From the UHGV virus genome UHGV-0311442: DNA of 64,000 nucleotides. One strand, given 5' to 3'. Under the pieces are notes generated by a model. The model was given only the letters and a program-made list of their open reading frames with translations, was not told where the DNA came from and searched no databases. The stretch's first letter is position 1; each line of letters starts with the position of its first letter. Positions 2,722-55,978 of the stretch are shown here, one piece after another. The stretch is from a virus. The position numbers were made by a program, and so were the translations under genes.

Positions 2722-3456
2722 TTAATCCCTGGTTAATTGATCACGAATCTGCGGCGCAACATACTCGCCAGTTTTCAGTTCTTCGTGACAGGCTTTGGCG
2801 CGTTCAAACCCGTATTGGCGGGTGACCAAAGCGAGGTGATAAATACGTGCCGTAGTGTAGGCTTCTTTTGCTGCATCCCACATTGCGTGGTGCTCAAAAG
2901 CGGGCTTACCGCGCGTCCAATAAACTTGCTCTACCGTTAAGTCGGGTTCGAAACCAAACGCAAAAGCTAAACGCTCTGCGGTACGATCGCTATCTAACGC
3001 GCTAAATTTACGGAACTTCCCTGGCGGGATATCGCATTGTGCGAATGCGTTCATGAAAACCGGCGCATCGAAGTCGGGACCGCGCATGGTAATAACAAAC
3101 TCATGCTTTGCGGTGATCTCTCCGAGCCATTTTTGCATCGCCCACAGCGCGTCTGGCAATGCTGTTGTTCCACCCCAGGCTTCTTCATACGCTTCACGAG
3201 ATGGTGCGTATTCGGGTTCACCTTTACCTTCCCACCAACCAACGGTTTGTGGGTCTTCGTGGAAAATGGCTTTTGCTTTAGGATCGTTAGGATCAATACG
3301 GATGTATGAAGAACCGACCATTTTCAAGGTAGGGACGTCAAAAGCCACTAAACCTGCACTCAACAGATAAGCATCAGGACGTAACGATTTGGTTTCTGCA
3401 TCAGCACCAATAACCAGTGTCGGTGTGTACGGGGTGACAATTTTTGGGTAGGTCAT
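2722..3456 (-). CDS. DEDDh-type 3'-5' exonuclease (DexA/DnaQ-like)
   Basis: LVIGADAETKSL (D-x-E), PDFDAPVF, HHAMWDAAKEAY (H-x4-D) arrangement; AGGAG RBS. Confidence 0.5.
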   Translation of the reverse strand: MTYPKIVTPYTPTLVIGADAETKSLRPDAYLLSAGLVAFDVPTLKMVGSSYIRIDPNDPKAKAIFHEDPQTVGWWEGKGEPEYAPSREAYEEAWGGTTALPDALWAMQKWLGEITAKHEFVITMRGPDFDAPVFMNAFAQCDIPPGKFRKFSALDSDRTAERLAFAFGFEPDLTVEQVYWTRGKPAFEHHAMWDAAKEAYTTARIYHLALVTRQYGFERAKACHEELKTGEYVAPQIRDQLTRD

Positions 3457-3546
3457 GTTGAATTCTCCTGTTAGTCTACATTAAAATAGTCGTAAACGTT
3501 AAAAAGAAAGACCCTCCTGTACCACGAAAGGGTACAGGAGGGAGTG

Positions 3547-4002
3547 TCAGTACAAACACGATGTCAAGTATTGGTTATACGAATCGAGCAGTGTCTGACG
3601 GTCGGAACGGTAATTCCACAACAAATTATTGAGTTTACGCGATAAATCACGGCTAATCTCTTGGGGCGTTAAAGAACTTTCATCAAGAGATAAGCGTTCA
3701 GGTACAACATGTAACTTCGGTAACTCATAACGTTCACAAAGTGGAGCCAGCATTGGTGGGCTCCAGCCACGTTTAACGGCTTGTTGGTTTAAATTTCGGG
3801 TGTAGACATAAACGTAGTAAGCATAGGTGTTGACATCCGCAACATACTCACGCATTGCATTATTGTCAATTTTCCAATTCACCATTATTGGCGGTGTAGG
3901 AGGAAGTTCCAGTGGCCTATAAGCTGGACGTTTAACTTCGTCGCCGTAGCTATTACTCACCAACCCCACGAACACCATCATGATGAATAACAGCATTTTC
4001 AT
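3547..4002 (-). CDS. secreted protein (signal peptide), unknown function
   Basis: N-terminus MKMLLFIMMVFVGLVSNSYG; AAGGAG 6 nt upstream of ATG at 4002 (track start 4005 is TTG). Confidence 0.5.
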   Translation of the reverse strand: MKMLLFIMMVFVGLVSNSYGDEVKRPAYRPLELPPTPPIMVNWKIDNNAMREYVADVNTYAYYVYVYTRNLNQQAVKRGWSPPMLAPLCERYELPKLHVVPERLSLDESSLTPQEISRDLSRKLNNLLWNYRSDRQTLLDSYNQYLTSCLY

Positions 4003-4005
4003 CAA

Positions 4006-4509
4006 TCACTCCTTAGAAGACGTTAGCGTCTTTATGATCTCCTGTCGAAAACTGTTCGCATTTAAATTGCCAACAGGTCTCGCCGAAGCCTCTTTACGTT
4101 GTTCTGGTGTTGAAGCTGGATTAACAGGAGTTTCTGGTTTTGTCGAAGACAGATCCTTCGCCGTACCGCTCGCTTTCGATGAATTAAACGTGCTTTCATA
4201 TGGCGGTTTCTGGCCGAGGCAAACGAAGAGCCTGTCGTATAACTTCCCATTATCTTCTTTTAGTTTATCTCGATCTTGTTTCATCTCTTGGTAAGACTGC
4301 GACATATAAGTGTCATGAGACTGCACTGCAACGAGCGCGTGAAACTGTTGTACATAGGCGTAGGAGACGAAGCCAGAATACGACAACAAGATCGTGATGA
4401 TTAAAGTCATTATCTTGCTTGCTCTTGATACGTTTTCTCCTTCTCCTGGTTTAAATGCTTCCATTAACATCTGAAGGAAGAACGGAAGCACTTTAAAAAA
4501 TGAACCCAT
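4006..4509 (-). CDS. bitopic membrane protein with periplasmic coiled coil (i-spanin-like architecture)
   Basis: single hydrophobic helix IMTLIITILLSYSGFVSYAYV followed by charged coiled-coil-like segment; GAGGTGA RBS; stop overlaps RBS of next gene. Confidence 0.5.
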   Translation of the reverse strand: MGSFFKVLPFFLQMLMEAFKPGEGENVSRASKIMTLIITILLSYSGFVSYAYVQQFHALVAVQSHDTYMSQSYQEMKQDRDKLKEDNGKLYDRLFVCLGQKPPYESTFNSSKASGTAKDLSSTKPETPVNPASTPEQRKEASARPVGNLNANSFRQEIIKTLTSSKE

Positions 4510-4534
4510 TGCTCACCTCGGAGTATTTTTAATT

Positions 4535-5908
4535 ATGTTAGACTTACAAGGTTTTATTCAGATACCGGCACTGTTTGACAATCAGGACGGCGTCACCGCT
4601 CCGGTGGGCGAGCTGTCGGATTTGACACTCTCGTACGCGAAGAGTAAACAGACGTTTACTAAAACCAATTTGCAAGTTCAATTGGTGACTTTTACGTCTA
4701 AACGAGAAAAACAGACGGTTGTTGTGCCAGCCGAGTTTTCTGATCATATTCTAACCGTTTCTCAATGGATTTACCAGCAAGCCATCTTGGGGAATCTGAG
4801 AAATGACGAACTCGAATTCCAGCGCCTGTTATTAGGCCAATTCCAATCAACCATTTCTGGTGTTCAGTCTGGTGCGATGATACAGACGAACAGTAACTGG
4901 TTCCCACGTTGGGTGAGCTGGAAATATGAAGTAACGGCAGATCAAGTACAAGATGACACTGATGTAGATAATCAGATCATTGTTTGGTTCTCGGATGAAG
5001 ACTTCGATCAAGATTACACAGGGTTCGAAATCGAAGTACAGATGCCGATTTCACCAATCGACACATTTTTGTCGACCAAGTCAGTCGTTGAAAAGGCGAT
5101 GGAAGGGTTTAACCTTACCGAACACCATAAGAAAATCAATGAGTTAATGGCAGGGTTTCCTTACACCGCTATCCAAACCAACTACTATACTTGGCACGAT
5201 CAAGAAAACTACGAGTCCACCCTAGTTGTCCCAATGTCGGTTATTATTTACGGACGTGCGGGGAAAAACCCAACGAAAATAAAGCAGGCGTTGCGAGAAC
5301 ATATTCTCGCTAATTCCAGCTTTACTGTCCCTGTCGGGGTAAAAGTATTTCCCGAGATTTTCACTACCACGAAATTTACAATTGTTCCCGGATGGAAAAT
5401 TCGTGGAATACCCAATGAGGAAGATGTGGCGGCGCTTTATTCCCCCATCCTTCCATATGATTTCTGGGTCAAAGCTATCAGTCGGTTTGGAGAATGGGCA
5501 GACCTGACGGTAGCAGAAAGAAATACTAAAACGATCAGTAAACCTACAACAGACGTAACTGACTTACCAACAGTTTATAAATCATTAAACTGTGTTGTAA
5601 TCAGTGGGCCGGAAAACGATACACGGAAAGCGACCTTACACGAAACTATCCCGGATTATGCGTTAATTGCGACGACTAACCCTGATATTGCGCGTATGTC
5701 GAAAACAACGACCGAATGGTTGGCGTTATTCTTCCAGGCACTTATTGCTGCGGAAGAATACCACCCGTATCAAACCAGCTTAGATGTTGTAAAACTGGTC
5801 GATGAGGCCGACCCTGATAACTACTTCTGGGTGTTTGAATACGACAACGTAGAATATCGTATCCTGTCTCGGAAAGCGAAATGGTACACCGAGTTAGACG
5901 AGGAGTAA
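4535..5908 (+). CDS. hypothetical protein (457 aa)
   Basis: long ORF, GGAG upstream, followed 4 nt later by next gene. Confidence 0.5.
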   Translation: MLDLQGFIQIPALFDNQDGVTAPVGELSDLTLSYAKSKQTFTKTNLQVQLVTFTSKREKQTVVVPAEFSDHILTVSQWIYQQAILGNLRNDELEFQRLLLGQFQSTISGVQSGAMIQTNSNWFPRWVSWKYEVTADQVQDDTDVDNQIIVWFSDEDFDQDYTGFEIEVQMPISPIDTFLSTKSVVEKAMEGFNLTEHHKKINELMAGFPYTAIQTNYYTWHDQENYESTLVVPMSVIIYGRAGKNPTKIKQALREHILANSSFTVPVGVKVFPEIFTTTKFTIVPGWKIRGIPNEEDVAALYSPILPYDFWVKAISRFGEWADLTVAERNTKTISKPTTDVTDLPTVYKSLNCVVISGPENDTRKATLHETIPDYALIATTNPDIARMSKTTTEWLALFFQALIAAEEYHPYQTSLDVVKLVDEADPDNYFWVFEYDNVEYRILSRKAKWYTELDEE

Positions 5909-5911
5909 TGA

Positions 5912-6535
5912 ATGGCTACGCGTTTACCACTCCAGGTACCGGTCAACACCACGGGACTGTTCAAAGTAAAAACACCATTTACTTTGGCCGAGACGGTCAT
6001 TTATACGGTAGAAGCGTCACGTACCTTCCCAGATTTAGTACGTCAGAATATTGACGTTTATAACTCGTATTACCAGCCAGTAGGGCTAGGACGTGAAGAA
6101 TATTTAGCAGATGCGAATGTTAGTGCGTCGATTCTGACATTTAAATCTCGGGACGGTCAAGTTGTATATATACCTGACACCTACCTGGAATCATACCCAG
6201 GTTTATCCGGGATCACGTATCAACGAAATGTGTTAGTGGTAGATTTGGCACTGGTACCGGATTACGTGAAAGTGTCGTCTATAACAAAAGACGTTTCAGA
6301 TATTCTCACGCATACACTAGGGATTGAGCCGAAAGTTGAAATTACAACACTCGAGTATGAGGGGAAGGTAACGGAGGAACAACACTTGCAGATGGAAGCG
6401 GCACGAAAAAATAAAATTCGTGAATCTATTCCATTAGGTGAGAAAGTTGCTGCGTTGACAGAAGAGAACAAAAAATTAAAAGAGTTAAACAACCAAATGT
6501 TAGAGATTCTTAAAGCTAACGGGTTAGTTAATTAA
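5912..6535 (+). CDS. hypothetical protein with C-terminal coiled coil (207 aa)
   Basis: GAGGAG RBS; C-terminus KVAALTEENKKLKELNNQMLEILK; followed by terminator. Confidence 0.55.
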   Translation: MATRLPLQVPVNTTGLFKVKTPFTLAETVIYTVEASRTFPDLVRQNIDVYNSYYQPVGLGREEYLADANVSASILTFKSRDGQVVYIPDTYLESYPGLSGITYQRNVLVVDLALVPDYVKVSSITKDVSDILTHTLGIEPKVEITTLEYEGKVTEEQHLQMEAARKNKIRESIPLGEKVAALTEENKKLKELNNQMLEILKANGLVN

Positions 6536-8177: not shown

Positions 8178-8657
8178 TTAAAATAATGGCAAGTTACGCC
8201 ATTGCCCTACCGAGTAAAAAGCTTTTGGATGTTTACGGATATACGCTTTCGCTTCTTCTGGCAACCAACGATCGCCTACCAGTTTTTGTTGTGCAACAAT
8301 TACCGCCATCAACAAATACGGATTTTTCGCACCGGGGAACTTTGCATTGGTTTCTAGCGCAATATCCAACATTGACGACCAGCCCAATAATTTATGTTGC
8401 GCCGGTAAACGTTCTTCAATATACATCAGCCATTTCATGATTTGTTTAGGCTTATACGGACAGGTATAATTCGCCCAACAGACCATGACGAACTTAATAG
8501 CCTTCGCAATCACCCATACAGGGACAGTCACGAAAAGGCAGAAAATGGCCAACTGCGAGGCGGGCGCTTCGACAAAAGTAATCGCCACAAGGACCATAAA
8601 CAATTCAAGTACCACAAACCAAAAACGCGTTGGATAACGCCAAATGAATTTTATCAT
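8178..8657 (-). CDS. integral membrane protein (2 predicted TM helices)
   Basis: hydrophobic segments FWFVVLELFMVLVAITFV and LAIFCLFVTVPVWVIAKAIKFV. Confidence 0.5.
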   Translation of the reverse strand: MIKFIWRYPTRFWFVVLELFMVLVAITFVEAPASQLAIFCLFVTVPVWVIAKAIKFVMVCWANYTCPYKPKQIMKWLMYIEERLPAQHKLLGWSSMLDIALETNAKFPGAKNPYLLMAVIVAQQKLVGDRWLPEEAKAYIRKHPKAFYSVGQWRNLPLF

Positions 8658-8723: not shown

Positions 8724-9233
8724 TTAGAAGAACGGCTGGTTTGGAATGACAGCGTACTCTAAAATGAACATGTGTTCTGGGGCGTCTTCTTTACGCCAGA
8801 CTTTGTGCGTCGTCACAAGTTTTTCCAGAATCGTTAAAAAACTACGCTGGCAGTATGTGTTTTCACCAAGCAGTAGATTTTGAAGTTCTACAGTAGCGTC
8901 CATATACGCCTGTTTAAAGACTAAACTACGATTATACTGTCCGGTAAAATTCCAAAGCAAGACTTTCCCTTCTTCGGTTTCTTTTACCGTTGGCCGTAAA
9001 CCACAAATCCACAACAAGGCAAGGTTGACGTTCCAGTCAAACTCTAAACCTTCTTCTTCGTCATCACCGAATGCTGTGGGTAAAGCATCGTAAAATTCGT
9101 GTTTCTCTGCGAATTCTTCATCTGACTTAATCTCGTCTTCGATGCTGCTTCGGACGATACTGTAAACGTCTTTCGCGGTCAATTGTGCGGCTTTTGTAAT
9201 GCCTTTATACCAATCGGTTACTACGATGCTCAA
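8724..9233 (-). CDS. hypothetical protein (169 aa), probable TTG start
   Basis: no ATG near N-terminus; TTG at 9233 preceded by GAGGAG at ideal spacing; overlaps stop of upstream gene. Confidence 0.45.
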   Translation of the reverse strand: MSIVVTDWYKGITKAAQLTAKDVYSIVRSSIEDEIKSDEEFAEKHEFYDALPTAFGDDEEEGLEFDWNVNLALLWICGLRPTVKETEEGKVLLWNFTGQYNRSLVFKQAYMDATVELQNLLLGENTYCQRSFLTILEKLVTTHKVWRKEDAPEHMFILEYAVIPNQPFF

Positions 9234-9928
9234 AGGGTAACTCCTCTATTGATTGGAAAACTCGTGTTTATCGTATCCCAAATTTTACTAACTTCCGCCA
9301 ATTGAATCTGACGTGGTGTTTTCTTCGCAAACGCAAGCTGACGTGGGGCCGAGCCCACAACAACAGGCACATCGATTTTCGCGCTATAGAACGCGGCGTC
9401 TTTCATAAAGCCTGCCATTTCTCGTTGTGCTGCTCGAGATTTGCTTTTGATTCGCGTGTGAGCGCCACTTTCACCCCAGTGGTAAGCTAACGCAACTTCA
9501 GCCATGGTGGGCTTGCGTTTGAGTCGTTTGGTTAACCCCTTTTCAAGATGTTTAACATACGCGGCAGCCAGCAAAACAGCATTACGCGGATTATACAAAT
9601 CGGCGTTCTGACTAAGACCTAATTCTTTTCCATAAAGCCTTAGCAGATTACGCTTGGTACTTGGAAGCATCTGTACCAGGCTGTGTGCTCGTGAGCTTTT
9701 GTTGTAAGCCTTGGGATCAAAACGCGATTCACGATAAATCAGCGTAATCATCAGCTTAGGATCAACGCCTTGCTTTCGAGAGATTTCCACAATTAACGGG
9801 CTGACTTTTTCGAACCGATGTTGGATTTGTGTAAACTCACGCTGATGCTTAGATTGCGGCGTTGATGTTGACGCCTGTGCGTTAAACGCGAAAAGTGTTA
9901 CCAGTAAAAGAAAGAAGATACGAAACAT
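9230..9928 (-). CDS. secreted soluble lytic transglycosylase (SLT domain)
   Basis: signal peptide MFRIFFLLLVTLFAFNAQAS; SLT motifs ITLIYRESRFDP and SLVQMLPST; GGAG RBS before the second ATG (9928). Confidence 0.6.
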   Translation of the reverse strand: MFRIFFLLLVTLFAFNAQASTSTPQSKHQREFTQIQHRFEKVSPLIVEISRKQGVDPKLMITLIYRESRFDPKAYNKSSRAHSLVQMLPSTKRNLLRLYGKELGLSQNADLYNPRNAVLLAAAYVKHLEKGLTKRLKRKPTMAEVALAYHWGESGAHTRIKSKSRAAQREMAGFMKDAAFYSAKIDVPVVVGSAPRQLAFAKKTPRQIQLAEVSKIWDTINTSFPINRGVTL

Positions 9929-10028
9929 TTTGTTTCTCCAGTTGGATTTATACATTTCCGTATTCCGTAAGACGAAATGACGGCGCGGACAGCTAATACT
10001 CCTTTGTTGTGTGCCCTAATGATAATAT

Positions 10029-12020: not shown

Positions 12021-12200
12021 CTAATTCCGCCATTCGCATTCGCGTTGACGCCAAATTGAACCCCACGATAGTTTAATCAGATAAGATGAAACTACCCATA
12101 AAATCATCACCACACAAAACATGACATAAAGAACCGCTAGAATGGACATGAAGCCAAACCCTGCCGCATCCACAATACGACGGAACCAATCAGTTTGCAT
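12021..12200 (-). CDS. possible small membrane protein (59 aa)
   Basis: hydrophobic core FGFMSILAVLYVMFCVVMILWVV; AAGGAG upstream; overlaps 3' end of ATPase gene. Confidence 0.35.
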   Translation of the reverse strand: MQTDWFRRIVDAAGFGFMSILAVLYVMFCVVMILWVVSSYLIKLSWGSIWRQRECEWRN

Positions 12201-14694
12201 AAACAATTTTTACTCCTTCGTTATACACCGCAGGCAATGTCACCCCTTCCGGTTCGATGACACAGTACGATGCTTCATTAAGTTTAGAATGAACCTCGGC
12301 TTCGTGGGAGACTACCAACAGTTGTGAAAATTCTCCTGAGTTTGCTAACGTTTTAATAAAGCCGACCAGGTTGTTACGGTGCTCCTCATCCATGCCCTCC
12401 GAAGGTTCATCCAAAAGCAACGGAAACTGATGCAACTTCAGCGCTTTGTACGCAGTCAGTCTGAACATCAGATTAAATATCGCACGCTGCGCCTTTGACC
12501 CTTTACGCACGTCAGGAACAGGCTCAGGATGCGTTTTTAGCTGGACAGGAAAAGTATAATCCAAATCGCCGTCAGTGAGATCACAAGGCATAACACGCAT
12601 GGGGTACGTCCAGACCTGTTCGATATAACGCGTCATTAACTCTGTGATTCTAACGATAGCGTTGTAAAAATACTTTCTAAGTACACCCTTTTCTGGCGAG
12701 AAGGCTTGAATCATCAGTTTGTTATTGAACTGCTGGGCTTGTAAGTCAGCAAGTTCGCGTTCCAAACTGTTGAGCTGGTTCAATTCATTTTCCATCTGAC
12801 GATAACGTTCGCGTGCGGTTGTAAAAGCATCCAGCTTCCCTTCTCGTGTACGTAAGAGTTCCTCGACGACCGTATTTGTCAACGTAACCTTAACGTCACT
12901 CTCTAACCGTTCGAATAACGCACTGAAATCATCTACAGCACGTTTAACATTCACTAGATAGGTAAGTGTCGTGTTAGCCAGTTCGTGCTCTCTACGACGC
13001 ATTGAGAGCATCTCTGTGGCTTTACCTAATCGCGACTGTTGGAAGGCGATCTTTTGTTGTAAAGCACCATCGACGTTACCAACGGCCGCTACGGCATCCT
13101 GCCATTCTTTTTCCGCCTTCACTAACCGTTGTCTGGTTTCATGGTACTCAATAGCAGAGTACAACTCACCGTCAAACGCTGCGCATAGACTCCCGAACTG
13201 CTCGCGAGACTCTGTGAAAACGTTACGTTCTTGCAAACGCTTAAAGAACATACTCAAAACAGGGTCCTTTGAATACGTCAGTACAATCTCACGAACCTGC
13301 CGCATATAAGTTACATCAGATTCTAATTCAACACGATCGCGTAATAAGGTCTCTAACTGCGTTTGCAGTTCCGTGCGCTGCTGTTGCTGTCCACGAATCG
13401 AAGACTCAAGTTCAGGCAAAGAACGCGTAACGCCTGGTCGAAACTTAAACCGACACTGCGGACAATCCACTTCCGCTGTTTCTAAGTAGTGGTTACGTTC
13501 GTGATTTAAATTCTGTAAAACGTTCTCCACTCGCTGGAGTCTATCCCGCAACCCGGCGGTTTTTTGATCCATCACCAGAAGCCGTTCTTCCAAAACATTG
13601 AGTTTTTCGGTCGAATGAATTGCGTCCAGCGTTGTTCCTAACCGTTGTCCCCAAACACGCGCGTCGGTAGCCGCACGAAGTTGGTCTAAATTGACGTTAT
13701 CGTTAAATAGACCCGGAAAGAGATGTTCAGTGTCCCATTTGGTAAGTAACTCACGTAAACGTGCCAGCGTATTCTTGAGACCTTCGTGATTCCGCATCAG
13801 GTAGTCCTGTCGTGTCGACTCATCCATCAATAACGACAAGTCTTTATTCAACATCGATACCTCTGTTTCAGTAGACACGACAGCTTCGCGGGCGGTCGCC
13901 TCGTTTTGTCGTGCGACCTGTATCTGTTCATCAGTAGGCAGACCACCACGATGTTGTAATATTGCGTCGATGGTTGGACCCAAGCTGTTTAATGACGCTT
14001 GGATTGTTTCGATGGTGACGCCGCGATTTAATCCTGGCAACTGTTCGATTTCTCGGTTCAGTTCACGTAAATCCGATTCCAAACCTTTTAATCTCGTCGC
14101 TAACTGCTGCCGTTCTTCCTCGTTCTCAATAACACGCGTCCGTAATTCGGCGATCTTACGGCTGGTGATTTCAATACCCCCATTTAAGGCAGTAAGGTTT
14201 TTACGTAAACGTTGATAAAACCCTAACGCGTAAGTGAGGTCAGAGGTGCTTAAACGGTAAAACCACTTGCGACGTAATTCGGTTCCCGCATCGGTTAACA
14301 AGACCTCACCATTTAATAGTTCTTTAATTTCTTTCGTAATACCCGTGATTTCTTCAACACGGGAGTTGTAGACTTTCGCATTACCTTGCTCGACGATCTT
14401 TGCCCCCGTGGTCAGGTTCTCAATATCACAAACCAAAGAGTTGCCTTTACGGGCAACTTTGAATCGATAGCGTTGATCGCCGACTAAACAGTAATTCGTG
14501 TAAGAACCGCCGTCCCTGAATTCAGTTTTAGCTGGTGCTAAGGGTAAGAACACAGACAGTAGACTGGTTTTCCCGCAGCCGTTCCCACCCAGGATAATTG
14601 TTGTTGGAGACTGGATAGTGAAATCGAAGGTTTCAATTTCATGTAACCCCATCCCCGTAAAACCTTTGAGTATAATGCGTTCAACTTTTAGCAT
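12190..14694 (-). CDS. Rad50/SbcC-like SMC-family ATPase with zinc hook
   Basis: Walker A ILGGNGCGKTSLL; long coiled-coil middle; CPQC hook motif mid-protein; Walker B/D-loop LLLDEPSEGMD; H-loop VSHE; start re-set to ATG at 14694 with GGAGGTG RBS. Confidence 0.7.
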   Translation of the reverse strand: MLKVERIILKGFTGMGLHEIETFDFTIQSPTTIILGGNGCGKTSLLSVFLPLAPAKTEFRDGGSYTNYCLVGDQRYRFKVARKGNSLVCDIENLTTGAKIVEQGNAKVYNSRVEEITGITKEIKELLNGEVLLTDAGTELRRKWFYRLSTSDLTYALGFYQRLRKNLTALNGGIEITSRKIAELRTRVIENEEERQQLATRLKGLESDLRELNREIEQLPGLNRGVTIETIQASLNSLGPTIDAILQHRGGLPTDEQIQVARQNEATAREAVVSTETEVSMLNKDLSLLMDESTRQDYLMRNHEGLKNTLARLRELLTKWDTEHLFPGLFNDNVNLDQLRAATDARVWGQRLGTTLDAIHSTEKLNVLEERLLVMDQKTAGLRDRLQRVENVLQNLNHERNHYLETAEVDCPQCRFKFRPGVTRSLPELESSIRGQQQQRTELQTQLETLLRDRVELESDVTYMRQVREIVLTYSKDPVLSMFFKRLQERNVFTESREQFGSLCAAFDGELYSAIEYHETRQRLVKAEKEWQDAVAAVGNVDGALQQKIAFQQSRLGKATEMLSMRRREHELANTTLTYLVNVKRAVDDFSALFERLESDVKVTLTNTVVEELLRTREGKLDAFTTARERYRQMENELNQLNSLERELADLQAQQFNNKLMIQAFSPEKGVLRKYFYNAIVRITELMTRYIEQVWTYPMRVMPCDLTDGDLDYTFPVQLKTHPEPVPDVRKGSKAQRAIFNLMFRLTAYKALKLHQFPLLLDEPSEGMDEEHRNNLVGFIKTLANSGEFSQLLVVSHEAEVHSKLNEASYCVIEPEGVTLPAVYNEGVKIVYAN

Positions 14695-14772
14695 ACCCAC
14701 CTCCATAAAGACGGAGTGTGGTGTAAAAAGAAAAAAATAAAGAAAGGGAGAACCCGAAGGTTCTCCCAAACG

Positions 14773-47248: not shown

Positions 47249-47728
47249 ATGCTAAAACGTTTTCTACTTGTTGTAACTGCAGCACTTTCGTTGGCAAGCT
47301 GTGCCCTACAACCCACCGCTAACGGTCAATTCTCGACTGTACCCGTAGAGCCACACGACATGGTTATTTACACCTGTATGGGTGTTGAGCAAGATTTTGC
47401 AAATTACAAACCTGTCGTCAGTTCGACTAACCTAATGTTAGGTTCAGTAACTGTAGTCGATACTGGTGCTAACTGGGTAGCCACTTGGCCAAACGGTAAG
47501 ATTGAATCACCACAACTTTATAAAGATCTATTAGGTAAAGTTAATGGGAATATCGATCCTATCACGGGACAACGTTACTACCGTGTAAATGGACTACTTT
47601 CAAAAACGCCAACATTTGCGTATTCTACTTTAGAATATAAAACGGGCGATGGTAAAGGCATTACTTTCTTCCACTGTAAGGAAGGTGTAGCTCCTGACAG
47701 TGGAACAATGCTCCATCCTGCGGAATAA
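47249..47728 (+). CDS. lipoprotein (159 aa)
   Basis: signal peptide with lipobox LASC (MLKRFLLVVTAALSLASC); own terminator; opposite strand to neighbours. Confidence 0.6.
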   Translation: MLKRFLLVVTAALSLASCALQPTANGQFSTVPVEPHDMVIYTCMGVEQDFANYKPVVSSTNLMLGSVTVVDTGANWVATWPNGKIESPQLYKDLLGKVNGNIDPITGQRYYRVNGLLSKTPTFAYSTLEYKTGDGKGITFFHCKEGVAPDSGTMLHPAE

Positions 47729-47846: not shown

Positions 47847-48362
47847 TTAAATCTCGACTAAAGCGCTCCAATCGATTGGTTTTTGCTTAACCACTTTCAC
47901 AGTACCACGATTTGGTGACCAGAAAGTAATGTTAGGTTGATTACGAACGTCGATGTGTAACCAGCTGATGTCACATTCAATAAAGTGAATGAACGGAAAC
48001 TCATCAGGGTTAGCAGCGATATAGTCGTGAACCTGTTTTACGGTGCTATCCAACAACGTTGCATCAATTGCGTTACCGAATTTGTGTTGACTTCCTGAAT
48101 CGGCGTAAAGCTGTAACGCACGTTGTTTATAACTACCGCCCTTAGGCTTTTCTTGATTAATAAAGAAATCTAAAGTTCTTAGTCCGCGTTGTTGCGCAGC
48201 GGTTGAGTTAATCACCATTCTACCGAAACGGTTACGAATCTGTTGCAGTGAAATCATTAGCAACGGGTTCATAAACCGGATTGCAGAATCGCCGTATTTG
48301 GCAATATAAGACTGTGGTACTAACTCTCTGAGTTTAAAATTACTCGGATTTGGATGAAACAT
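47847..48362 (-). CDS. peptidase M15-family cell-wall peptidase
   Basis: SGSQHKFGNAIDA and WLHIDVR motifs (zinc ligands of M15 D,D-/L,D-peptidases); GGGAGGGAAG RBS. Confidence 0.6.
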   Translation of the reverse strand: MFHPNPSNFKLRELVPQSYIAKYGDSAIRFMNPLLMISLQQIRNRFGRMVINSTAAQQRGLRTLDFFINQEKPKGGSYKQRALQLYADSGSQHKFGNAIDATLLDSTVKQVHDYIAANPDEFPFIHFIECDISWLHIDVRNQPNITFWSPNRGTVKVVKQKPIDWSALVEI

Positions 48363-49005
48363 CTTCCCTCCCAGACAGAAAAGCGCGTTTGATGTTCAGG
48401 TATTTGACATTAACGGGCTGATCTGTGGTGATATCAATACGTTCGTGGTCAGGGATTGCAGGTTCCTTAAACTCGCGAACGAATAAATAGTTTCGATTAT
48501 AATCTAACGTACGAAACGCGTTAGTGTTGTAGGATGGCTTTGCATTAGGATCTACGTAGGAATCCCAGCCGAATTCAACGACGGCCTTATAAAATGTTTG
48601 GCAGATATAAGGTGAGATTTCCAACGACTGCATAATACGCAGGAACGTTAAATCAGAGAACTCTTTATCGATAATACGCGAAACGTTACCACCCGGTGTC
48701 ATGGGATAGCTACGCTCCGTGTTACATTTTTGATAGAGTAGGTCGTGAATGCAGGCCGCAGGTGCCCACGGTCCGTCAGGATGGAAAATTCCCTGGAGGT
48801 GTTCAGGAATTGACGCTAAATCGGTAACGAACCCTTTCGGTGCTGTTAACCACAGTTGCGTGTCAGGCAATACACCCGTTAAATAAACCGCACGGTCTAA
48901 GTGTACGTGGTCGTGATAAATCTCACGTAACGTAAACGGATAATGGTAATCCTCCGTTAATACAAACCACTTATTGTCTAAACGTTTATATTGAAACTTC
49001 TCCAT
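48340..49005 (-). CDS. DUF1353-like protein
   Basis: TDLASIPEHLQGIFHPDGPWAPAACIHDLLY resembles the DUF1353 D-x-AS-x-P...HD pattern; start re-set to ATG 49005. Confidence 0.4.
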   Translation of the reverse strand: MEKFQYKRLDNKWFVLTEDYHYPFTLREIYHDHVHLDRAVYLTGVLPDTQLWLTAPKGFVTDLASIPEHLQGIFHPDGPWAPAACIHDLLYQKCNTERSYPMTPGGNVSRIIDKEFSDLTFLRIMQSLEISPYICQTFYKAVVEFGWDSYVDPNAKPSYNTNAFRTLDYNRNYLFVREFKEPAIPDHERIDITTDQPVNVKYLNIKRAFLSGREDVSSKSE

Positions 49006-49121
49006 TACCCACACCTTCCCTTATAGAAACCAGAAAAATTCGCATCCACGCTTTTCGTCTTTACGTTTTCGTCCAGACGTTAACGCTTTCCACAATAGTG
49101 CTAAGAGTTTAGCAAACCAGT

Positions 49122-49712
49122 TCATTTTACTAACCCCGCCTTCACTACATAATCCGGCATTTCCCTGAACACACGTGCGTACCAGCCGTAAGCGAATTTT
49201 TCATTCTTCTTACGCTTTTCGGAGATTTCTGTGTAGTAGGTTACCTGGTGTGAGATTAACGCAAAGATTAAGATGCCTAACCCCTCGTCTTTACGGTAAT
49301 TCAGATAAGCATTCAGGGCACCTAGCGTTTTAGGTCCCATACCGCCGTCGGTGTCAATATCTGCGTAAAGTTTCCCTTCGTTATTTAAAACGTTCAGAAT
49401 ACGTTGTAACGATTTCACACAGTTAACGCGGCCAGAGTTAATAGCAAAATCAAACATCCGGTCTGCGAGTAAGGGTGAAATAGCTAAAATCTCATCGAGT
49501 TTAAGTTTCTTCCACCAACCGCGATCGTAAATATCAAACGCCTGCGCACGGGTCAGATCCTTCATTTTTCCTTTATACCCGTATTCGCGTGCAGTTGTTA
49601 GTGTTACACCGTGACAGGTTTCCCCACCTTTATCGTCAGGGTCGTTTACGTACCCGCCTTCTAAATCTGTTTTCGAAGCAATAATACCTTCTTTAGTCCA
49701 ACGTTCGGCCAT
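49122..49712 (-). CDS. GH108-type muramidase with peptidoglycan-binding domain (endolysin candidate)
   Basis: N-terminal DLEGGYVNDPDDKGGETCHGVT (EGGY catalytic motif of GH108) plus C-terminal PG-binding-like region; GAGGAG RBS. Confidence 0.7.
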   Translation of the reverse strand: MAERWTKEGIIASKTDLEGGYVNDPDDKGGETCHGVTLTTAREYGYKGKMKDLTRAQAFDIYDRGWWKKLKLDEILAISPLLADRMFDFAINSGRVNCVKSLQRILNVLNNEGKLYADIDTDGGMGPKTLGALNAYLNYRKDEGLGILIFALISHQVTYYTEISEKRKKNEKFAYGWYARVFREMPDYVVKAGLVK

Positions 49713-54993: not shown

Positions 54994-55294
54994 TGATAAT
55001 CTCCCAGTTCGCTCTTATAATCTCACGTTTACAGTCTTCAATATCTTTACGGTAAAACGTCGTTTTTTCTTTTAATAGCTTTAATATCTCCTCTTTAGGC
55101 AATTTCCCCTCACAACCCAATTCAGCAATAGCACAAACGAGAACAGTCAAATATTCTACTGAACCGGTTTTCGCACGATATTCAGAGATAAGTTCTTGTT
55201 GTGTTTCAACGGTTTCTTCTAATAACTTGATATATTCTTCGTGCTTTGCGCACGCTTTGCATTTTCCGAAACCTAGCAATTTAAAAACCACTAT
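54983..55294 (-). CDS. hypothetical protein with CxxC (103 aa), GTG start
   Basis: AAGGAGG 5 nt before GTG at 55294; the track ATG at 55330 lacks an RBS. Confidence 0.45.
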   Translation of the reverse strand: MVVFKLLGFGKCKACAKHEEYIKLLEETVETQQELISEYRAKTGSVEYLTVLVCAIAELGCEGKLPKEEILKLLKEKTTFYRKDIEDCKREIIRANWEIINEA

Positions 55295-55592
55295 TACCTC
55301 CTTTGGCAATCCAGGTCGCCACACGCACATGAGCGTCTTGAAAAGACGATATGAGCAAGATCACACCGCCTAACGTACGAGGGACGCGTAAGGCTTCGTA
55401 ACGACGGCAGTAAGAACGTACGCAATACTCGGAACCTAAGATAACGATTTCGCAGTATTCTGAACGAATAGGTAGTAGTTGAGAAACGAGTTTATCGCAC
55501 GTTTCTTTATTGTCTTCTAACAACCCACCACGGAGAATATAGTTGACAATGTTCTCAGGTACCGATGTGTTTGTGATTTTACTTTCCATCAT
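55281..55592 (-). CDS. hypothetical Cys-containing protein (103 aa)
   Basis: AGGAG RBS. Confidence 0.5.
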   Translation of the reverse strand: MMESKITNTSVPENIVNYILRGGLLEDNKETCDKLVSQLLPIRSEYCEIVILGSEYCVRSYCRRYEALRVPRTLGGVILLISSFQDAHVRVATWIAKGGNSGF

Positions 55593-55978
55593 TAAACTCC
55601 TATAGTGATCTCCGTAATGTGCATTCTTCGCATCTCACGGGTCATTCTGTCTATTGCTCGTTGACACTCGAATAAATTGTCGTAGTATTTCTGGGCGGTA
55701 ACGTTGAATATAATCCGACCTTCTTTCAATTGTTTAGCAACGACTTTTGTAGTTTCCGATTCAAACAGCAAACCACCTTCCCTGCCGATCTTAACTAAAA
55801 CGTCACGAATGATAACGTTTATAAGCTCACCATTTGGGGAAACCACGATTTCCGTATACCAATCGCCCTCGCTAACGATACGTTGTACCCTTTCACCGCA
55901 TAGCCAGTTTTTAACTTTCCCGTTAACATACAGTTGGGCTTTCAGTAACAAACGTCTTTTAATGTAAGATAAACGCAT
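55592..55978 (-). CDS. hypothetical protein (128 aa), paralog of 55982..56356
   Basis: shared GDWYTEI...IGREGG...F...TAQ core. Confidence 0.55.
   Translation of the reverse strand: MRLSYIKRRLLLKAQLYVNGKVKNWLCGERVQRIVSEGDWYTEIVVSPNGELINVIIRDVLVKIGREGGLLFESETTKVVAKQLKEGRIIFNVTAQKYYDNLFECQRAIDRMTREMRRMHITEITIGV

What the first reader, a model, noticed from the sequence alone, without database searches (positions are those of the whole stretch)
3547..4509. Spanin-like gene pair far from the muramidase
A bitopic membrane protein with a periplasmic coiled coil is immediately followed by a secreted protein, the i-spanin/o-spanin arrangement except that the second protein has no lipobox. It lies about 45 kb from the GH108 muramidase. 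It could be a non-canonical spanin pair or an unrelated envelope complex.
Basis: inference. Interest (0 to 1): 0.4.

Follow-up and report, generated by a model that had tools for sequence, protein, structure and literature searches.

The report
Spanin-like jumbo-phage envelope gene pair
Two adjacent genes of an uncultured giant (phiKZ/SPN3US-type) phage encode a membrane-anchored protein and a secreted partner that look like the "spanin" pair phages use to burst the outer membrane, but they belong to a different, uncharacterised family, and here the partner has lost its lipid anchor.

Summary
On the minus strand, gene 1 (4509-4006, 167 aa) is an N-in/C-out single-pass membrane protein. Gene 2 (4002-3547, 151 aa) follows 4 nt later, has a signal peptide with no lipobox, and ends at a strong terminator. 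The window is a new SPN3US/Asesino-like jumbo phage.

The pair corresponds to phiKZ gp156.1/gp156. That rests on synteny between the gp157-like head gene and the RNase H gene, plus hhalign 96% for gene 2. It does not correspond to phiKZ's validated spanins gp141/gp141.1.

In 36 of 39 family representatives gene 2 is a lipoprotein. The window's clade (8 genomes, dN/dS 0.05-0.13) and one other lineage replaced the lipobox with a signal-peptidase-I site. PCH45, RAY, Miami and Aphrodite1 keep only a gene-1-like protein in this slot, and PCH45 and phiKZ carry canonical spanins elsewhere.

Best reading: a conserved envelope module with spanin-like layout, probably not the membrane-fusing spanin. A non-canonical spanin is not excluded, because no other spanin candidate exists in SPN3US. 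Function is untested. Interest is moderate.

The parts
4006..4509 (-). Gene 1: 167-aa bitopic inner-membrane protein (PHROG 8719). It is the positional equivalent of phiKZ gp156.1, PCH45 gp68, RAY gp146 and Miami gp218.
   Evidence: ORF and SD. PHROG 8719 at E 1.2e-58. 19 homologues at 51-98% identity. dN/dS about 0.15. Sits in the slot between the gp157-like and RNase H genes.
4414..4509 (-). Gene 1 aa 1-32: conserved cytoplasmic N-terminus, made of an amphipathic helix SFFKVLPFFLQMLMEAF followed by a KPGEGE loop.
   Evidence: Most residues are invariant across 10 homologues. Hydrophobic moment 1.6. AF2 helix 3-18. A similar N-terminal helix occurs in the phiKZ, PCH45, Miami, Aphrodite1, L030 and L031 slot proteins. 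Profile support is only weak: hhalign probability 29%.
4351..4413 (-). Gene 1 aa 33-53: the single transmembrane segment.
   Evidence: KD 19-residue maximum of 1.75 at residue 33. K+R count is 3 on the N side and 0 on the C side, giving N-in/C-out.
4219..4350 (-). Gene 1 aa 54-97: periplasmic helix with heptad-spaced hydrophobic residues, ending at the invariant Cys97 (LFxCLG).
   Evidence: AF2 models a continuous helix 29-97. The heptad d-positions read V-M-M-L-L-C. C97 is invariant.
4060..4218 (-). Gene 1 aa 98-150: Pro/Ser/Thr-rich spacer of variable length, predicted to be disordered.
   Evidence: Composition S8 P7 K5 T5. pLDDT below 50 for residues 108-133 and 143-148. A 17-aa deletion in L015 and indels among other homologues.
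4009..4059 (-). Gene 1 aa 151-167: conserved C-terminal helix (N-x-FRQEII-x-TL), preceded by the RPVG motif. It is the candidate docking site for the gene 2 product.
   Evidence: R144, P145, V146, G147 and F154-I158 are invariant. AF2 helix 151-163. Docking is an inference.
4009..4014 (-). Shine-Dalgarno AAGGAG for gene 2, lying inside the last codons of gene 1. The gene 1 stop (4006-4008) is 3 nt from the gene 2 ATG, so the two genes are probably translationally coupled.
   Evidence: Sequence read directly. The junction is conserved in L010, L012 and L015.
3547..4002 (-). Gene 2: 151-aa secreted protein (PHROG 8165), a homologue of the phiKZ gp156 lipoprotein family that lacks the lipobox.
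   Evidence: PHROG 8165 at E 1.7e-41. Against phiKZ gp156: hhalign probability 96.4%, E 1e-9; HMM E 8.9e-9; phiKZ gp156 hits PHROG 8165 at 1.8e-6. dN/dS 0.05-0.13.
3943..4002 (-). Gene 2 aa 1-20: Sec signal peptide with a signal-peptidase-I-type site (SNSYG|D). A Leu occupies the alignment column where 36 of 39 relatives have the lipobox Cys.
   Evidence: Alignments A1 and A2. The same motif occurs in 8 distinct genomes of the clade. Cleavage is an inference.
3550..3942 (-). Gene 2 aa 21-151: the mature periplasmic protein. A Pro-rich N-terminal stretch is followed by a two-helix hairpin (47-77 and 113-147). Cys89 and Cys149 are invariant, and the protein ends in C-x-Y.
   Evidence: AF2 mean pLDDT 89.3. 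C89 and C149 are invariant in 39 sequences. No fold match in the PDB.
3502..3542 (-). Intrinsic terminator 5 nt after the gene 2 stop codon: a 12-bp stem with 8 G-C pairs, followed by TCTTTCTTTT. It closes the two-gene unit.
   Evidence: Terminator scan. Folding energy -24.1 kcal/mol, z = -5.2. The hairpin is conserved in L010, L012 and L015; the only differences lie at the loop end of the stem.

Best explanation
The pair is this phage's version of a positionally conserved envelope module of nucleus-forming (phiKZ-like) jumbo phages, equivalent to phiKZ gp156.1/gp156. Its layout is spanin-like, but it is probably not the outer-membrane-fusing spanin.

Shown or predicted directly:
- Gene 1 is predicted to insert N-in/C-out.
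- It keeps a strongly conserved 32-residue amphipathic N-terminus on the cytoplasmic side.
- It projects a helix with a weak heptad pattern ending in an invariant Cys, then a flexible Pro/Ser/Thr spacer, then a conserved C-terminal helix into the periplasm.
- Gene 2 has a Sec signal peptide and a confidently modelled two-helix hairpin with two invariant Cys.

Inferred:
- Gene 2 is cut by signal peptidase I, is soluble in the periplasm and is disulfide-locked.
- It docks on the C-terminal helix of gene 1.

In most relatives the partner carries a lipobox and a non-Asp +2 residue. There the complex would bridge the inner and outer membranes. In this clade the lipid anchor has been replaced, so the complex hangs from the inner membrane only.

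The anchor is dispensable in two lineages, and the partner is absent altogether in PCH45, RAY, Miami and Aphrodite1. The core activity therefore resides in the bitopic protein and in periplasmic protein-protein contacts, not in pulling two membranes together.

My best guess for the role, which is inference only, is relay of an envelope or periplasmic state to the cytoplasm through the conserved N-terminus. This could serve lysis timing (lysis inhibition) or a superinfection signal. I give about 0.3 to that specific role within this explanation.
For: Identity of the family:
- PHROG 8719 and 8165, both of unknown function.
- Synteny with phiKZ: RNase H, gp156, gp157 and gp161.
- Gene 2 against phiKZ gp156: BLASTP 9e-5 with both Cys aligned; hhalign 96.4%; HMM 8.9e-9; PHROG cross-hit 1.8e-6.

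Distinct from canonical spanins:
- phiKZ gp141/gp141.1 complement lambda Rz/Rz1 amber mutants (PMC12894885) and tolerate almost no transposon insertions. They fall in 'Rz-like spanin' PHROGs, whereas gp156.1 and gp156 do not.
- PCH45 gp54 is an i-spanin with an embedded LVGC-lipobox ORF and is Tn-seq essential. The PCH45 slot holds a single bitopic protein with no lipoprotein.
- RAY, Miami and Aphrodite1 likewise have one bitopic coiled-coil gene in the slot and no adjacent or embedded lipobox ORF.

The anchor is dispensable:
- The lipobox Cys is present in 36 of 39 representatives.
- It is absent in 8 genomes of the window clade, with gene 2 dN/dS of 0.05-0.13.
- It is absent independently in L030/P0053.

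Features atypical for spanins:
- A conserved 32-aa cytoplasmic tail.
- A large partner confidently modelled as a helical hairpin, pLDDT 89.

The pair is a unit of its own: coupled start and a conserved terminator.
Against: - No experiment exists for any member of the family.
- In the complete SPN3US genome this pair is the only bitopic-protein-plus-lipoprotein pair. No product there is annotated as spanin or holin. If SPN3US-like phages need a spanin, this is the only visible candidate.
- The layout, the conserved periplasmic Cys residues, the non-Asp +2 residue in relatives and the closeness to a secreted SLT (2-5 kb) all fit spanins.
- The RAY slot protein weakly hits 'Rz-like spanin' PHROGs at about 2e-4.
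- Homology of gene 1 to gp156.1 and the other slot proteins is positional and architectural only. hhalign is not significant.
- The proposed signalling role has no direct support.
Confidence: 0.5

Rival explanations
1. It is the phage's real two-component spanin in a non-canonical form. Gene 1 is the i-spanin. Gene 2 is an o-spanin that reaches or perturbs the outer membrane without a lipid anchor, for example through its Tyr-rich helix or a host outer-membrane partner. After murein degradation the complex destroys the outer membrane.
For: - Type II membrane protein with a periplasmic helix, immediately followed by a secreted protein with a coupled start.
- Relatives carry a lipobox with a non-Asp +2 residue.
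- Both proteins have conserved periplasmic Cys residues.
- The spacer plus the tether are long enough to cross the periplasm.
- No other spanin candidate exists in SPN3US or in the 64-kb window.
- A secreted SLT lies 2-5 kb away across the clade.
Against: - The defining lipobox is absent here and in 8 related genomes.
- phiKZ and PCH45 have separate canonical spanins that are essential, so the gp156-type pair does not substitute for them.
- Several lineages have gene 1 without any partner.
- The partner is a large helical hairpin, unlike the short Pro-rich o-spanins.
- There is no similarity to any spanin PHROG.
Confidence: 0.2
2. It is a holin/antiholin-type lysis-timing pair, analogous to T4 T plus RI. 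Gene 1 would be a class III (one TMD, N-in/C-out) hole-former, and gene 2 a periplasmic modulator that binds its periplasmic domain.
For: - The topology is the same as T4 T, with a secreted soluble partner like RI (T4 biology as summarised in PMC12894885).
- phiKZ shows lysis-inhibition-like behaviour at high MOI, and the periplasmic sensor is unknown.
- No holin is annotated in SPN3US.
Against: - There is no sequence or profile similarity to any holin or antiholin family.
- The phiKZ holin is gp142 and is essential.
- A better-looking holin candidate, a two-TMD protein at 8178-8657, lies beside the SLT gene.
- Lethality of gene 1 has not been tested.
Confidence: 0.12
3. It is a superinfection-exclusion or envelope-protection module. 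An inner-membrane protein plus a periplasmic or outer-membrane partner would block DNA entry or the tail lysin of incoming phages, like T4 Imm/Sp or the Cor/Llp lipoproteins.
For: - Envelope location of both products.
- Middle-phase expression of the phiKZ operon that contains gp156.1 and gp156.
- The lipoprotein-to-soluble switch is compatible with a binding or inhibitor function. MliC/PliC is an analogy from my own knowledge.
Against: - Exclusion genes are usually accessory and patchy. This slot is occupied across Chimalliviridae and is under strong purifying selection.
- No transposon insertions were recovered in phiKZ 156 or 156.1, although polarity on gp155 could explain that.
Confidence: 0.1
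4. The missing lipobox is an artefact: a sequencing or assembly error, a wrong start codon, or a decaying pseudogene.
For: None beyond the oddity itself.
Against: - The same VGLVSN(S/G)YG|(D/E) N-terminus occurs in 8 independently assembled genomes that differ at many synonymous sites.
- dN/dS is 0.05-0.13.
- The SD and ATG are conserved.
- No alternative frame or start yields a lipobox.
Confidence: 0.01

Closest known systems
phiKZ gp156.1 / gp156 (PHIKZ_p47 / PHIKZ156; PHROGs 14813 / 15897), uncharacterised
   Same: - Same slot and orientation: divergent from the gp157-like head gene and upstream of the RNase H-like core gene.
- The first protein is a small bitopic protein with an N-terminal amphipathic helix, a TMD and a periplasmic helix.
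- The second protein is homologous over the Cys-to-Cys C-terminal domain.
   Different: - phiKZ gp156 has a lipobox (LISGC) and lacks the Tyr-rich first helix.
- gp156.1 has only about 40 periplasmic residues and no spacer.
- phiKZ has no exonuclease gene between the pair and RNase H. The pair is reported to be co-transcribed with gp155 and gp154, and no terminator was looked for there.
- Similarity of gene 1 to gp156.1 is not statistically supported.
Two-component spanins: lambda Rz/Rz1, the 'separated' T4 PseT.3/PseT.2, phiKZ gp141/gp141.1 and PCH45 gp54 with its embedded ORF
   Same: - Gene order and adjacency.
- A type II inner-membrane protein with a helical periplasmic domain.
- A secreted second subunit.
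- Conserved periplasmic Cys residues.
- In most relatives, an outer-membrane-type lipoprotein.
   Different: - No lipobox here.
- The second subunit is 131 aa and modelled as a helical hairpin rather than being short and Pro-rich.
- The first subunit has a conserved 32-aa cytoplasmic domain.
- No sequence or PHROG relationship to spanins.
- The family coexists with validated or canonical spanins in phiKZ and PCH45.
T4 holin T with periplasmic antiholin RI
   Same: A bitopic N-in/C-out protein with a periplasmic domain, plus a secreted soluble periplasmic protein. Both act at the envelope.
   Different: - No homology.
- The genes are adjacent here, which they are not in T4.
- RI uses a SAR domain.
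- No evidence that gene 1 forms holes.
MliC / PliC lysozyme inhibitors (lipoprotein versus soluble periplasmic homologues); analogy from my own knowledge, not tested
   Same: Homologous periplasmic proteins that exist in lipid-anchored and signal-peptidase-I-secreted versions. This shows that the anchor can be swapped when function depends on binding.
   Different: Unrelated fold and sequence. No evidence that gene 2 inhibits a muramidase.

Membership tests
Two-component spanin (i-spanin + o-spanin) | i-spanin: one N-terminal TMD, N-in/C-out | tested here: met
   One hydrophobic segment at aa 33-53. K+R count is 3 before and 0 after. AF2 models a helix through the TMD. No dedicated topology predictor was available.
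Two-component spanin (i-spanin + o-spanin) | i-spanin periplasmic domain mostly alpha-helical with coiled coil | tested here: inconclusive
   Residues 54-97 are helical with heptad-spaced hydrophobic residues. About half of the periplasmic domain (98-150) is a disordered P/S/T spacer. No coiled-coil predictor was run.
Two-component spanin (i-spanin + o-spanin) | o-spanin gene embedded in, overlapping or immediately downstream of the i-spanin gene | tested here: met
   The gene 2 ATG is 3 nt after the gene 1 stop codon, and its SD lies inside gene 1.
Two-component spanin (i-spanin + o-spanin) | o-spanin is an outer-membrane lipoprotein (signal peptidase II signal with lipobox Cys) | tested here: not met
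   There is no Cys in the first 88 residues. Leu occupies the lipobox column. The same holds in 8 clade genomes. The feature is met in 36 of 39 family representatives elsewhere.
Two-component spanin (i-spanin + o-spanin) | Sequence or profile relationship to an established spanin family | tested here: not met
   PHROG hits are to families of unknown function. There is no similarity to phiKZ gp141 or gp141.1 beyond the signal peptide. As a control, gp141 and gp141.1 do hit 'Rz-like spanin' PHROGs. Pfam and NCBIfam are uninformative, because even validated spanins hit nothing there.
Two-component spanin (i-spanin + o-spanin) | Functional: complements a spanin defect; a knockout gives spherical cells | not testable with these tools
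   Requires a lambda RzamRz1am complementation assay, as in PMC12894885.
phiKZ gp156.1/gp156-type envelope pair (PHROG 8719 + 8165 and relatives) | Second protein homologous to the gp156 family (Cys...Cys C-terminal domain) | tested here: met
   PHROG 8165 at 1.7e-41. hhalign against gp156 gives 96.4%. HMM gives 8.9e-9. C89 and C149 are invariant.
phiKZ gp156.1/gp156-type envelope pair (PHROG 8719 + 8165 and relatives) | Location between the gp157-like (cg46) and RNase H-like (cg47) core genes, transcribed towards RNase H | tested here: met
   Shown. The same arrangement occurs in SPN3US, Asesino, L010-L031, phiKZ, PCH45, RAY, Miami and Aphrodite1.
phiKZ gp156.1/gp156-type envelope pair (PHROG 8719 + 8165 and relatives) | First protein homologous to gp156.1 and the other slot proteins | tested here: inconclusive
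   The architecture and N-terminal helix pattern are the same. hhalign is not significant: 0.1% against gp156.1 and 29% against the slot-protein alignment.
phiKZ gp156.1/gp156-type envelope pair (PHROG 8719 + 8165 and relatives) | Second protein lipid-anchored (typical of the family) | tested here: not met
   See the lipobox row above. This clade and L030 are the exceptions.
Unimolecular spanin (u-spanin, T1 gp11 type) | One protein with an N-terminal lipobox and a C-terminal TMD | tested here: not met
   Neither protein has both features.
T4-type class III holin + RI antiholin | Homology to T or RI families; lethal, energy-poison-triggered hole formation | tested here: not met
   There are no Pfam, NCBIfam or PHROG hits to holin or antiholin families. 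The functional part cannot be tested here.

The most novel reading that the evidence does not exclude
The pair is a working spanin whose outer subunit is not a lipoprotein. In that case outer-membrane disruption would not need a lipid-anchored o-spanin, which would break the defining rule of two-component spanins.

A second, related reading is that the bitopic slot protein found across nucleus-forming phages is a new class of envelope-to-cytoplasm transducer that controls lysis timing.
Probability: 0.1. Interest if true: 0.8.

Novelty: new variant of a known kind. Interest (0 to 1): 0.45.

Why it matters
Lysis of nucleus-forming jumbo phages has only just been worked out for phiKZ (2026). It is unknown for the enterobacterial SPN3US/Asesino group, where no spanin or holin is annotated.

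This analysis shows three things:
- These phages, and phiKZ itself, carry a second, spanin-like pair made of an inner-membrane protein and a lipoprotein.
- The membrane partner of that pair sits in a slot that is occupied in every Chimalliviridae lineage examined.
- The lipid anchor has been discarded at least twice without loss of selection on the gene.

The result is a concrete, cheap experiment: lambda Rz/Rz1 complementation with anchored and anchor-less natural variants. It would decide whether this is a new spanin type or a new envelope module. It also warns annotators that the pattern 'TMD protein followed by lipoprotein' is not sufficient to call a spanin.

Tried and rejected
- **Nucleotide relatives.** Megablast of 3000-5000 against phage records found nothing, so the phage has no close cultured relative.
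- **Curated families.** Pfam and NCBIfam gave no hits for either protein. Validated spanins also hit nothing there, so this is uninformative.
- **Fold search of the gene 2 model.** No PDB match. BFVD returned only family members and weak hits to other jumbo-phage proteins.
- **Locus search with the broad alignment.** The search for related loci with A2 failed because there was no conserved stretch. With A1 it returned only close relatives.
- **Gene 1 homology.** hhalign of the gene 1 family against gp156.1, gp141 and the slot proteins was not significant.
- **Embedded or overlapping Rz1-like ORFs.** None were found in the pair or in the RAY, Miami, Aphrodite1 and PCH45 slot genes.
- **u-spanin.** Rejected, because neither protein combines a lipobox with a C-terminal TMD.
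- **Sequencing error or pseudogene.** Rejected.
- **PCH45 relatives.** No homologues of PCH45 gp54 or gp55 exist in SPN3US or the window.
- **Literature.** Nothing was found on SPN3US gp204/gp205 or phiKZ gp156/156.1 beyond co-transcription and Tn-seq tables.
- **PCH45 gp68.** Its Tn-seq status could not be retrieved because no supplement is held.
Full report
**1. What is in the sequence**

The finding covers two co-oriented minus-strand genes.
- Gene 1 runs 4509..4006 (167 aa, ATG, preceded by GAGGTG).
- Gene 2 runs 4002..3547 (151 aa). Its ATG lies 7 nt after an AAGGAG that sits in the last codons of gene 1, and 3 nt after the gene 1 stop codon. The ORF listing reports an upstream TTG at 4005.
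- Five nucleotides after the gene 2 stop codon there is a 12-bp G+C-rich hairpin followed by TCTTTCTTTT. Its folding energy is -24.1 kcal/mol (z = -5.2), and it is conserved in relatives; the only differences lie at the loop end of the stem.
- Upstream, only 25 bp separate gene 1 from a divergent virion-protein gene that starts at 4535.

Both genes are real. PHROG HMMs match end to end (phrog_8719 at 1.2e-58 and phrog_8165 at 1.7e-41, both 'unknown function'). Orthologues from four distinct genomes give dN/dS of 0.15-0.16 for gene 1 and 0.05-0.13 for gene 2.

**2. The proteins**

Gene 1:
- It has one hydrophobic segment at aa 33-53, with three K/R in the 15 residues before it and none after. 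It is therefore N-in/C-out.
- With a 10-sequence alignment, AF2 gives a helix at 3-18, a continuous helix at 29-97, a disordered stretch at about 98-150 and a helix at 151-163.
- Conservation is highest in four places: the cytoplasmic N-terminus (amphipathic SFFKVLPFFLQMLMEAF plus KPGEGE), the juxtamembrane FVSYAY, the end of the periplasmic helix (LYDRLFxCLG..PPY, with Cys97 invariant) and the C-terminal RPVG...FRQEI..TL.
- The Pro/Ser/Thr spacer varies and carries indels, including a 17-aa deletion in L015.

Gene 2:
- It begins MKMLLFIMMVFVGLVSNSYG|DEV. This is a short h-region with a -3 Ser / -1 Gly site, and there is no Cys before residue 89.
- With a 39-sequence alignment, AF2 gives mean pLDDT 89 and a two-helix hairpin (47-77 and 113-147) after a Pro-rich N-terminal stretch.
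- Cys89 and Cys149 are the only invariant residues of the family, and most members end in C-x-Y/F.

The GH108 + PG_binding_3 protein is at 49122-49712, about 45 kb away.

**3. Where the window comes from**

There is no nucleotide match in the phage collection. Both proteins find 50-60% identical relatives in SPN3US-like Salmonella, Escherichia, Proteus and Cronobacter phages and in Asesino/phiEaH2-like Erwinia jumbo phages of 240-250 kb.

Closer relatives (77-99% identity) come only from metagenome contigs of 220-227 kb, including a human-gut assembly, and from IMG/VR.

Gene order around the pair is the same throughout: macro domain, secreted SLT, a few small genes, two inverted structural genes (DUF7194 and gp157-like), the pair, a 3'-5' exonuclease and RNase H.

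**4. The lipobox question**

The SPN3US and Asesino homologues of gene 2 carry textbook lipoboxes, LLTG-C-P and LLVG-C-N.

A profile search of 1.84 billion representative proteins found 45 relatives.
- In the curated 39-sequence alignment, 36 have the lipobox Cys, and none of those I inspected has Asp at +2.
- The exceptions are the window, its near relative P0002, and P0053, which reads LAFSASA|VD and lies in a distant lineage (L030).

Across 18 non-identical gene pairs recovered from loci, all eight members of the window's clade have VGLVSN(S/G)YG|(D/E) and no usable Cys. These are the window, L010, L012, L015 and L017-L020. One member has a Cys at position 11 in a non-lipobox context, and it is Trp or Phe in the others.

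The loss is therefore real, fixed, under purifying selection, and has happened at least twice. It is not a sequencing error.

**5. Relationship to known spanins**

A 2026 paper showed that phiKZ has a lysis cassette, gp141-gp144. In it, gp141/gp141.1 (overlapping genes, lipobox LNGC) complement lambda RzamRz1am (PMC12894885). Kongari et al. 2018 list the same pair.

The window pair does not correspond to that pair.
- tblastn of phiKZ proteins against the window gives gp155 (RNase H) at 1238-2707, gp156 at 3556-3738, gp157 at 4535-5878, gp161 at 5939-6532 and the gp144 SLT domain at 9461-9802.
- phiKZ gp156 is a lipoprotein (LISG-C). It matches gene 2 over the Cys-to-Cys domain by BLASTP (9e-5, both Cys aligned), by hhalign (96.4%, E 1e-9), by a family HMM (8.9e-9) and through PHROG 8165 (1.8e-6).
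- The gene upstream of it, gp156.1, is a 96-aa bitopic protein with an N-terminal amphipathic helix. It is the positional equivalent of gene 1, although profile comparison is not significant.
- By contrast, the family matches gp141.1 only through its signal peptide and does not match gp141 at all.
- gp141 and gp141.1 fall in 'Rz-like spanin' PHROGs, whereas gp156.1 and gp156 fall in 'unknown' ones.

In the phiKZ Tn-seq tables, 141, 141.1, 142 and 144 tolerate essentially no insertions. The same is true of 154-157, but there polarity on the essential gp155 cannot be excluded. The 156.1-156-155-154 unit is co-transcribed, and gp155, which belongs to that unit, is a ChmA-dependent, middle-phase gene.

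**6. A wider look at the slot**

In the published core-genome table, gp157 (cg46) and gp155 (cg47) are core genes. Goslar and RAY each leave one unlisted gene between them. I read four such slots.
- PCH45 (73634-74158, 174 aa), RAY gp146 (114 aa), Miami gp218 (135 aa) and Aphrodite1_0005 (143 aa) are all single bitopic proteins with a periplasmic helical or coiled-coil domain.
- Most of them have an N-terminal amphipathic helix like that of gene 1.
- None has a downstream or embedded lipobox ORF.
- The family HMM for gene 2 finds nothing in the whole PCH45 genome.
- PCH45 has a canonical spanin elsewhere. Its gp54 is an i-spanin with an N-terminal TMD, and I found an unannotated embedded ORF with an LVGC lipobox inside it. 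gp54 is reported as Tn-seq essential and as an 'Rz lysis/spanin' gene.

Two independent lineages, phiKZ and PCH45, therefore combine a canonical spanin with a gene-1-like slot protein. The lipoprotein partner is optional across the family.

**7. The counter-argument**

I assembled the complete SPN3US genome from five fetches and scanned every ORF and every start for lipoboxes. Positive controls were phiKZ gp141.1 and gp156.
- Only three annotated genes qualify, and only the pair under study is a TMD protein followed by a lipoprotein.
- No SPN3US product is annotated as spanin or holin.
- The window itself has only one other lipoprotein (47249-47728), which has no membrane partner.

If SPN3US-like phages use a two-component spanin, this pair is the only visible candidate.

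The pair also sits 2-5 kb from a signal-peptide-bearing SLT transglycosylase in every member of the group. In L030 only the two inverted structural genes separate them. The RAY slot protein weakly hits 'Rz-like spanin' PHROGs at about 2e-4, which may be no more than TMD-plus-coiled-coil composition.

**8. Weighing**

For a mechanical spanin, the lipid anchor of the outer subunit is the feature that puts it in the outer membrane. A clade that drops the anchor yet keeps the gene under dN/dS of about 0.1 points elsewhere, as do lineages that drop the partner entirely. Both indicate that the conserved activity is periplasmic binding plus something done by the bitopic protein.

The best-conserved part of the bitopic protein is cytoplasmic, which is unusual for i-spanins. 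The partner is also a large helical hairpin, unlike typical o-spanins (the 'typical' picture is from Kongari 2018 and my own knowledge).

I therefore favour (0.5) a conserved Chimalliviridae envelope module that is spanin-like in layout but is not the fusogenic spanin. In most relatives it would bridge the inner and outer membranes. Here it is tethered to the inner membrane only.

- **Shown:** gene structure, homology and synteny, lipobox distribution, and selection.
- **Predicted from sequence:** membrane topology and secondary structure.
- **Inferred:** signal-peptidase-I cleavage, the Cys89-Cys149 disulfide, Cys97-mediated dimerisation, docking of gene 2 on the gene 1 C-terminal helix, and any role.

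My best guess for the role is relay of a periplasmic or envelope signal to the cytoplasm, serving lysis timing or a superinfection response. It rests only on architecture and on the open question of how phiKZ-type phages sense high multiplicity of infection.

The rivals are a non-canonical spanin (0.2), a T/RI-like holin-antiholin pair (0.12), superinfection exclusion (0.1) and artefact (0.01).

**9. Novelty and verdict**

- The family is present in databases but has no assigned function, and I found no paper that discusses it.
- The instance in the window is a new variant because it lacks the anchor.
- Interest is moderate at 0.45. This is a clear, testable lead on jumbo-phage envelope biology and a caution for spanin annotation, but it has no functional evidence.

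Noticed in passing
window 9230-9955 (-), 8724-9233 (-), 8178-8657 (-): An SLT-domain lytic transglycosylase with a cleavable-looking signal peptide (…FAFNAQA|S) lies about 4.7 kb upstream of the pair. It is followed by a 169-aa cytoplasmic protein (PHROG 8114) and a 159-aa protein with two N-terminal TMDs (PHROG 20030). This looks like a possible Sec-exported endolysin, regulator and holin cluster. The arrangement is conserved in relatives, and the SLT also has a signal peptide in L030.
   Followed up: partly
window 47249-47728 (+), 47847-48362 (-), 48340-49014 (-), 49122-49712 (-): The only canonical lipoprotein in the window (LSLAS-C, PHROG 9559, unknown function) sits beside three genes: a PHROG 894 'endolysin'-like protein, a DUF1353 'tail assembly chaperone' and the GH108 + PG_binding_3 muramidase. 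It has no membrane-protein partner and no C-terminal TMD, so it is neither an o-spanin nor a u-spanin. The SPN3US homologue is at 137623-138114.
   Followed up: partly
L016 20215-20535 (-) = PCH45 (MN334766) about 55214-55534, inside gp54 (55185-55721): There is an unannotated embedded ORF with an LVGC lipobox and a Pro-rich mature part inside the PCH45 gene that a Tn-seq preprint calls an Rz-like spanin. It is very likely the missing o-spanin of PCH45.
   Followed up: partly
P0008, P0027, P0031, P0058 (SPFM7/8/12 records; hits H119, H120): Several database proteins from the Salmonella phage SPFM records look like segment-shuffled versions of the SPN3US gp204/gp205 sequences, with the same peptides in a different order. 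This suggests scrambled assemblies or records. They were excluded from the alignments.
   Followed up: no
gene 2 family, C-terminus (window 3550-3558): Nearly all distant family members end in Cys-[LIVM]-[Tyr/Phe]-COOH. The SPN3US and Erwinia subgroups end in CLN, CLI or CLVQ. The terminal aromatic residue recalls C-terminal motifs read by periplasmic PDZ proteases. This remains unexplained.
   Followed up: no
L010 15857-17684, L012 16375-17274, L015 16822-18652 (beyond the left end of the window): One or two genes with Pfam AcrVA2-like domains lie about 5 kb downstream of the RNase H gene in the close relatives.
   Followed up: no
window 4510-4534: Only 25 bp separate the divergent start codons of gene 1 and the gp157-like virion gene. 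Any promoters for both must therefore lie inside the neighbouring coding sequences. The sigma-70 scan found nothing above chance, as expected for a phage that uses its own RNA polymerases.
   Followed up: partly
window 12190-14769 (-): An 859-aa SMC/SbcC-like ATPase, the phiKZ gp165-type core gene, lies upstream of the macro-domain and SLT genes. This order is the same in all relatives.
   Followed up: no
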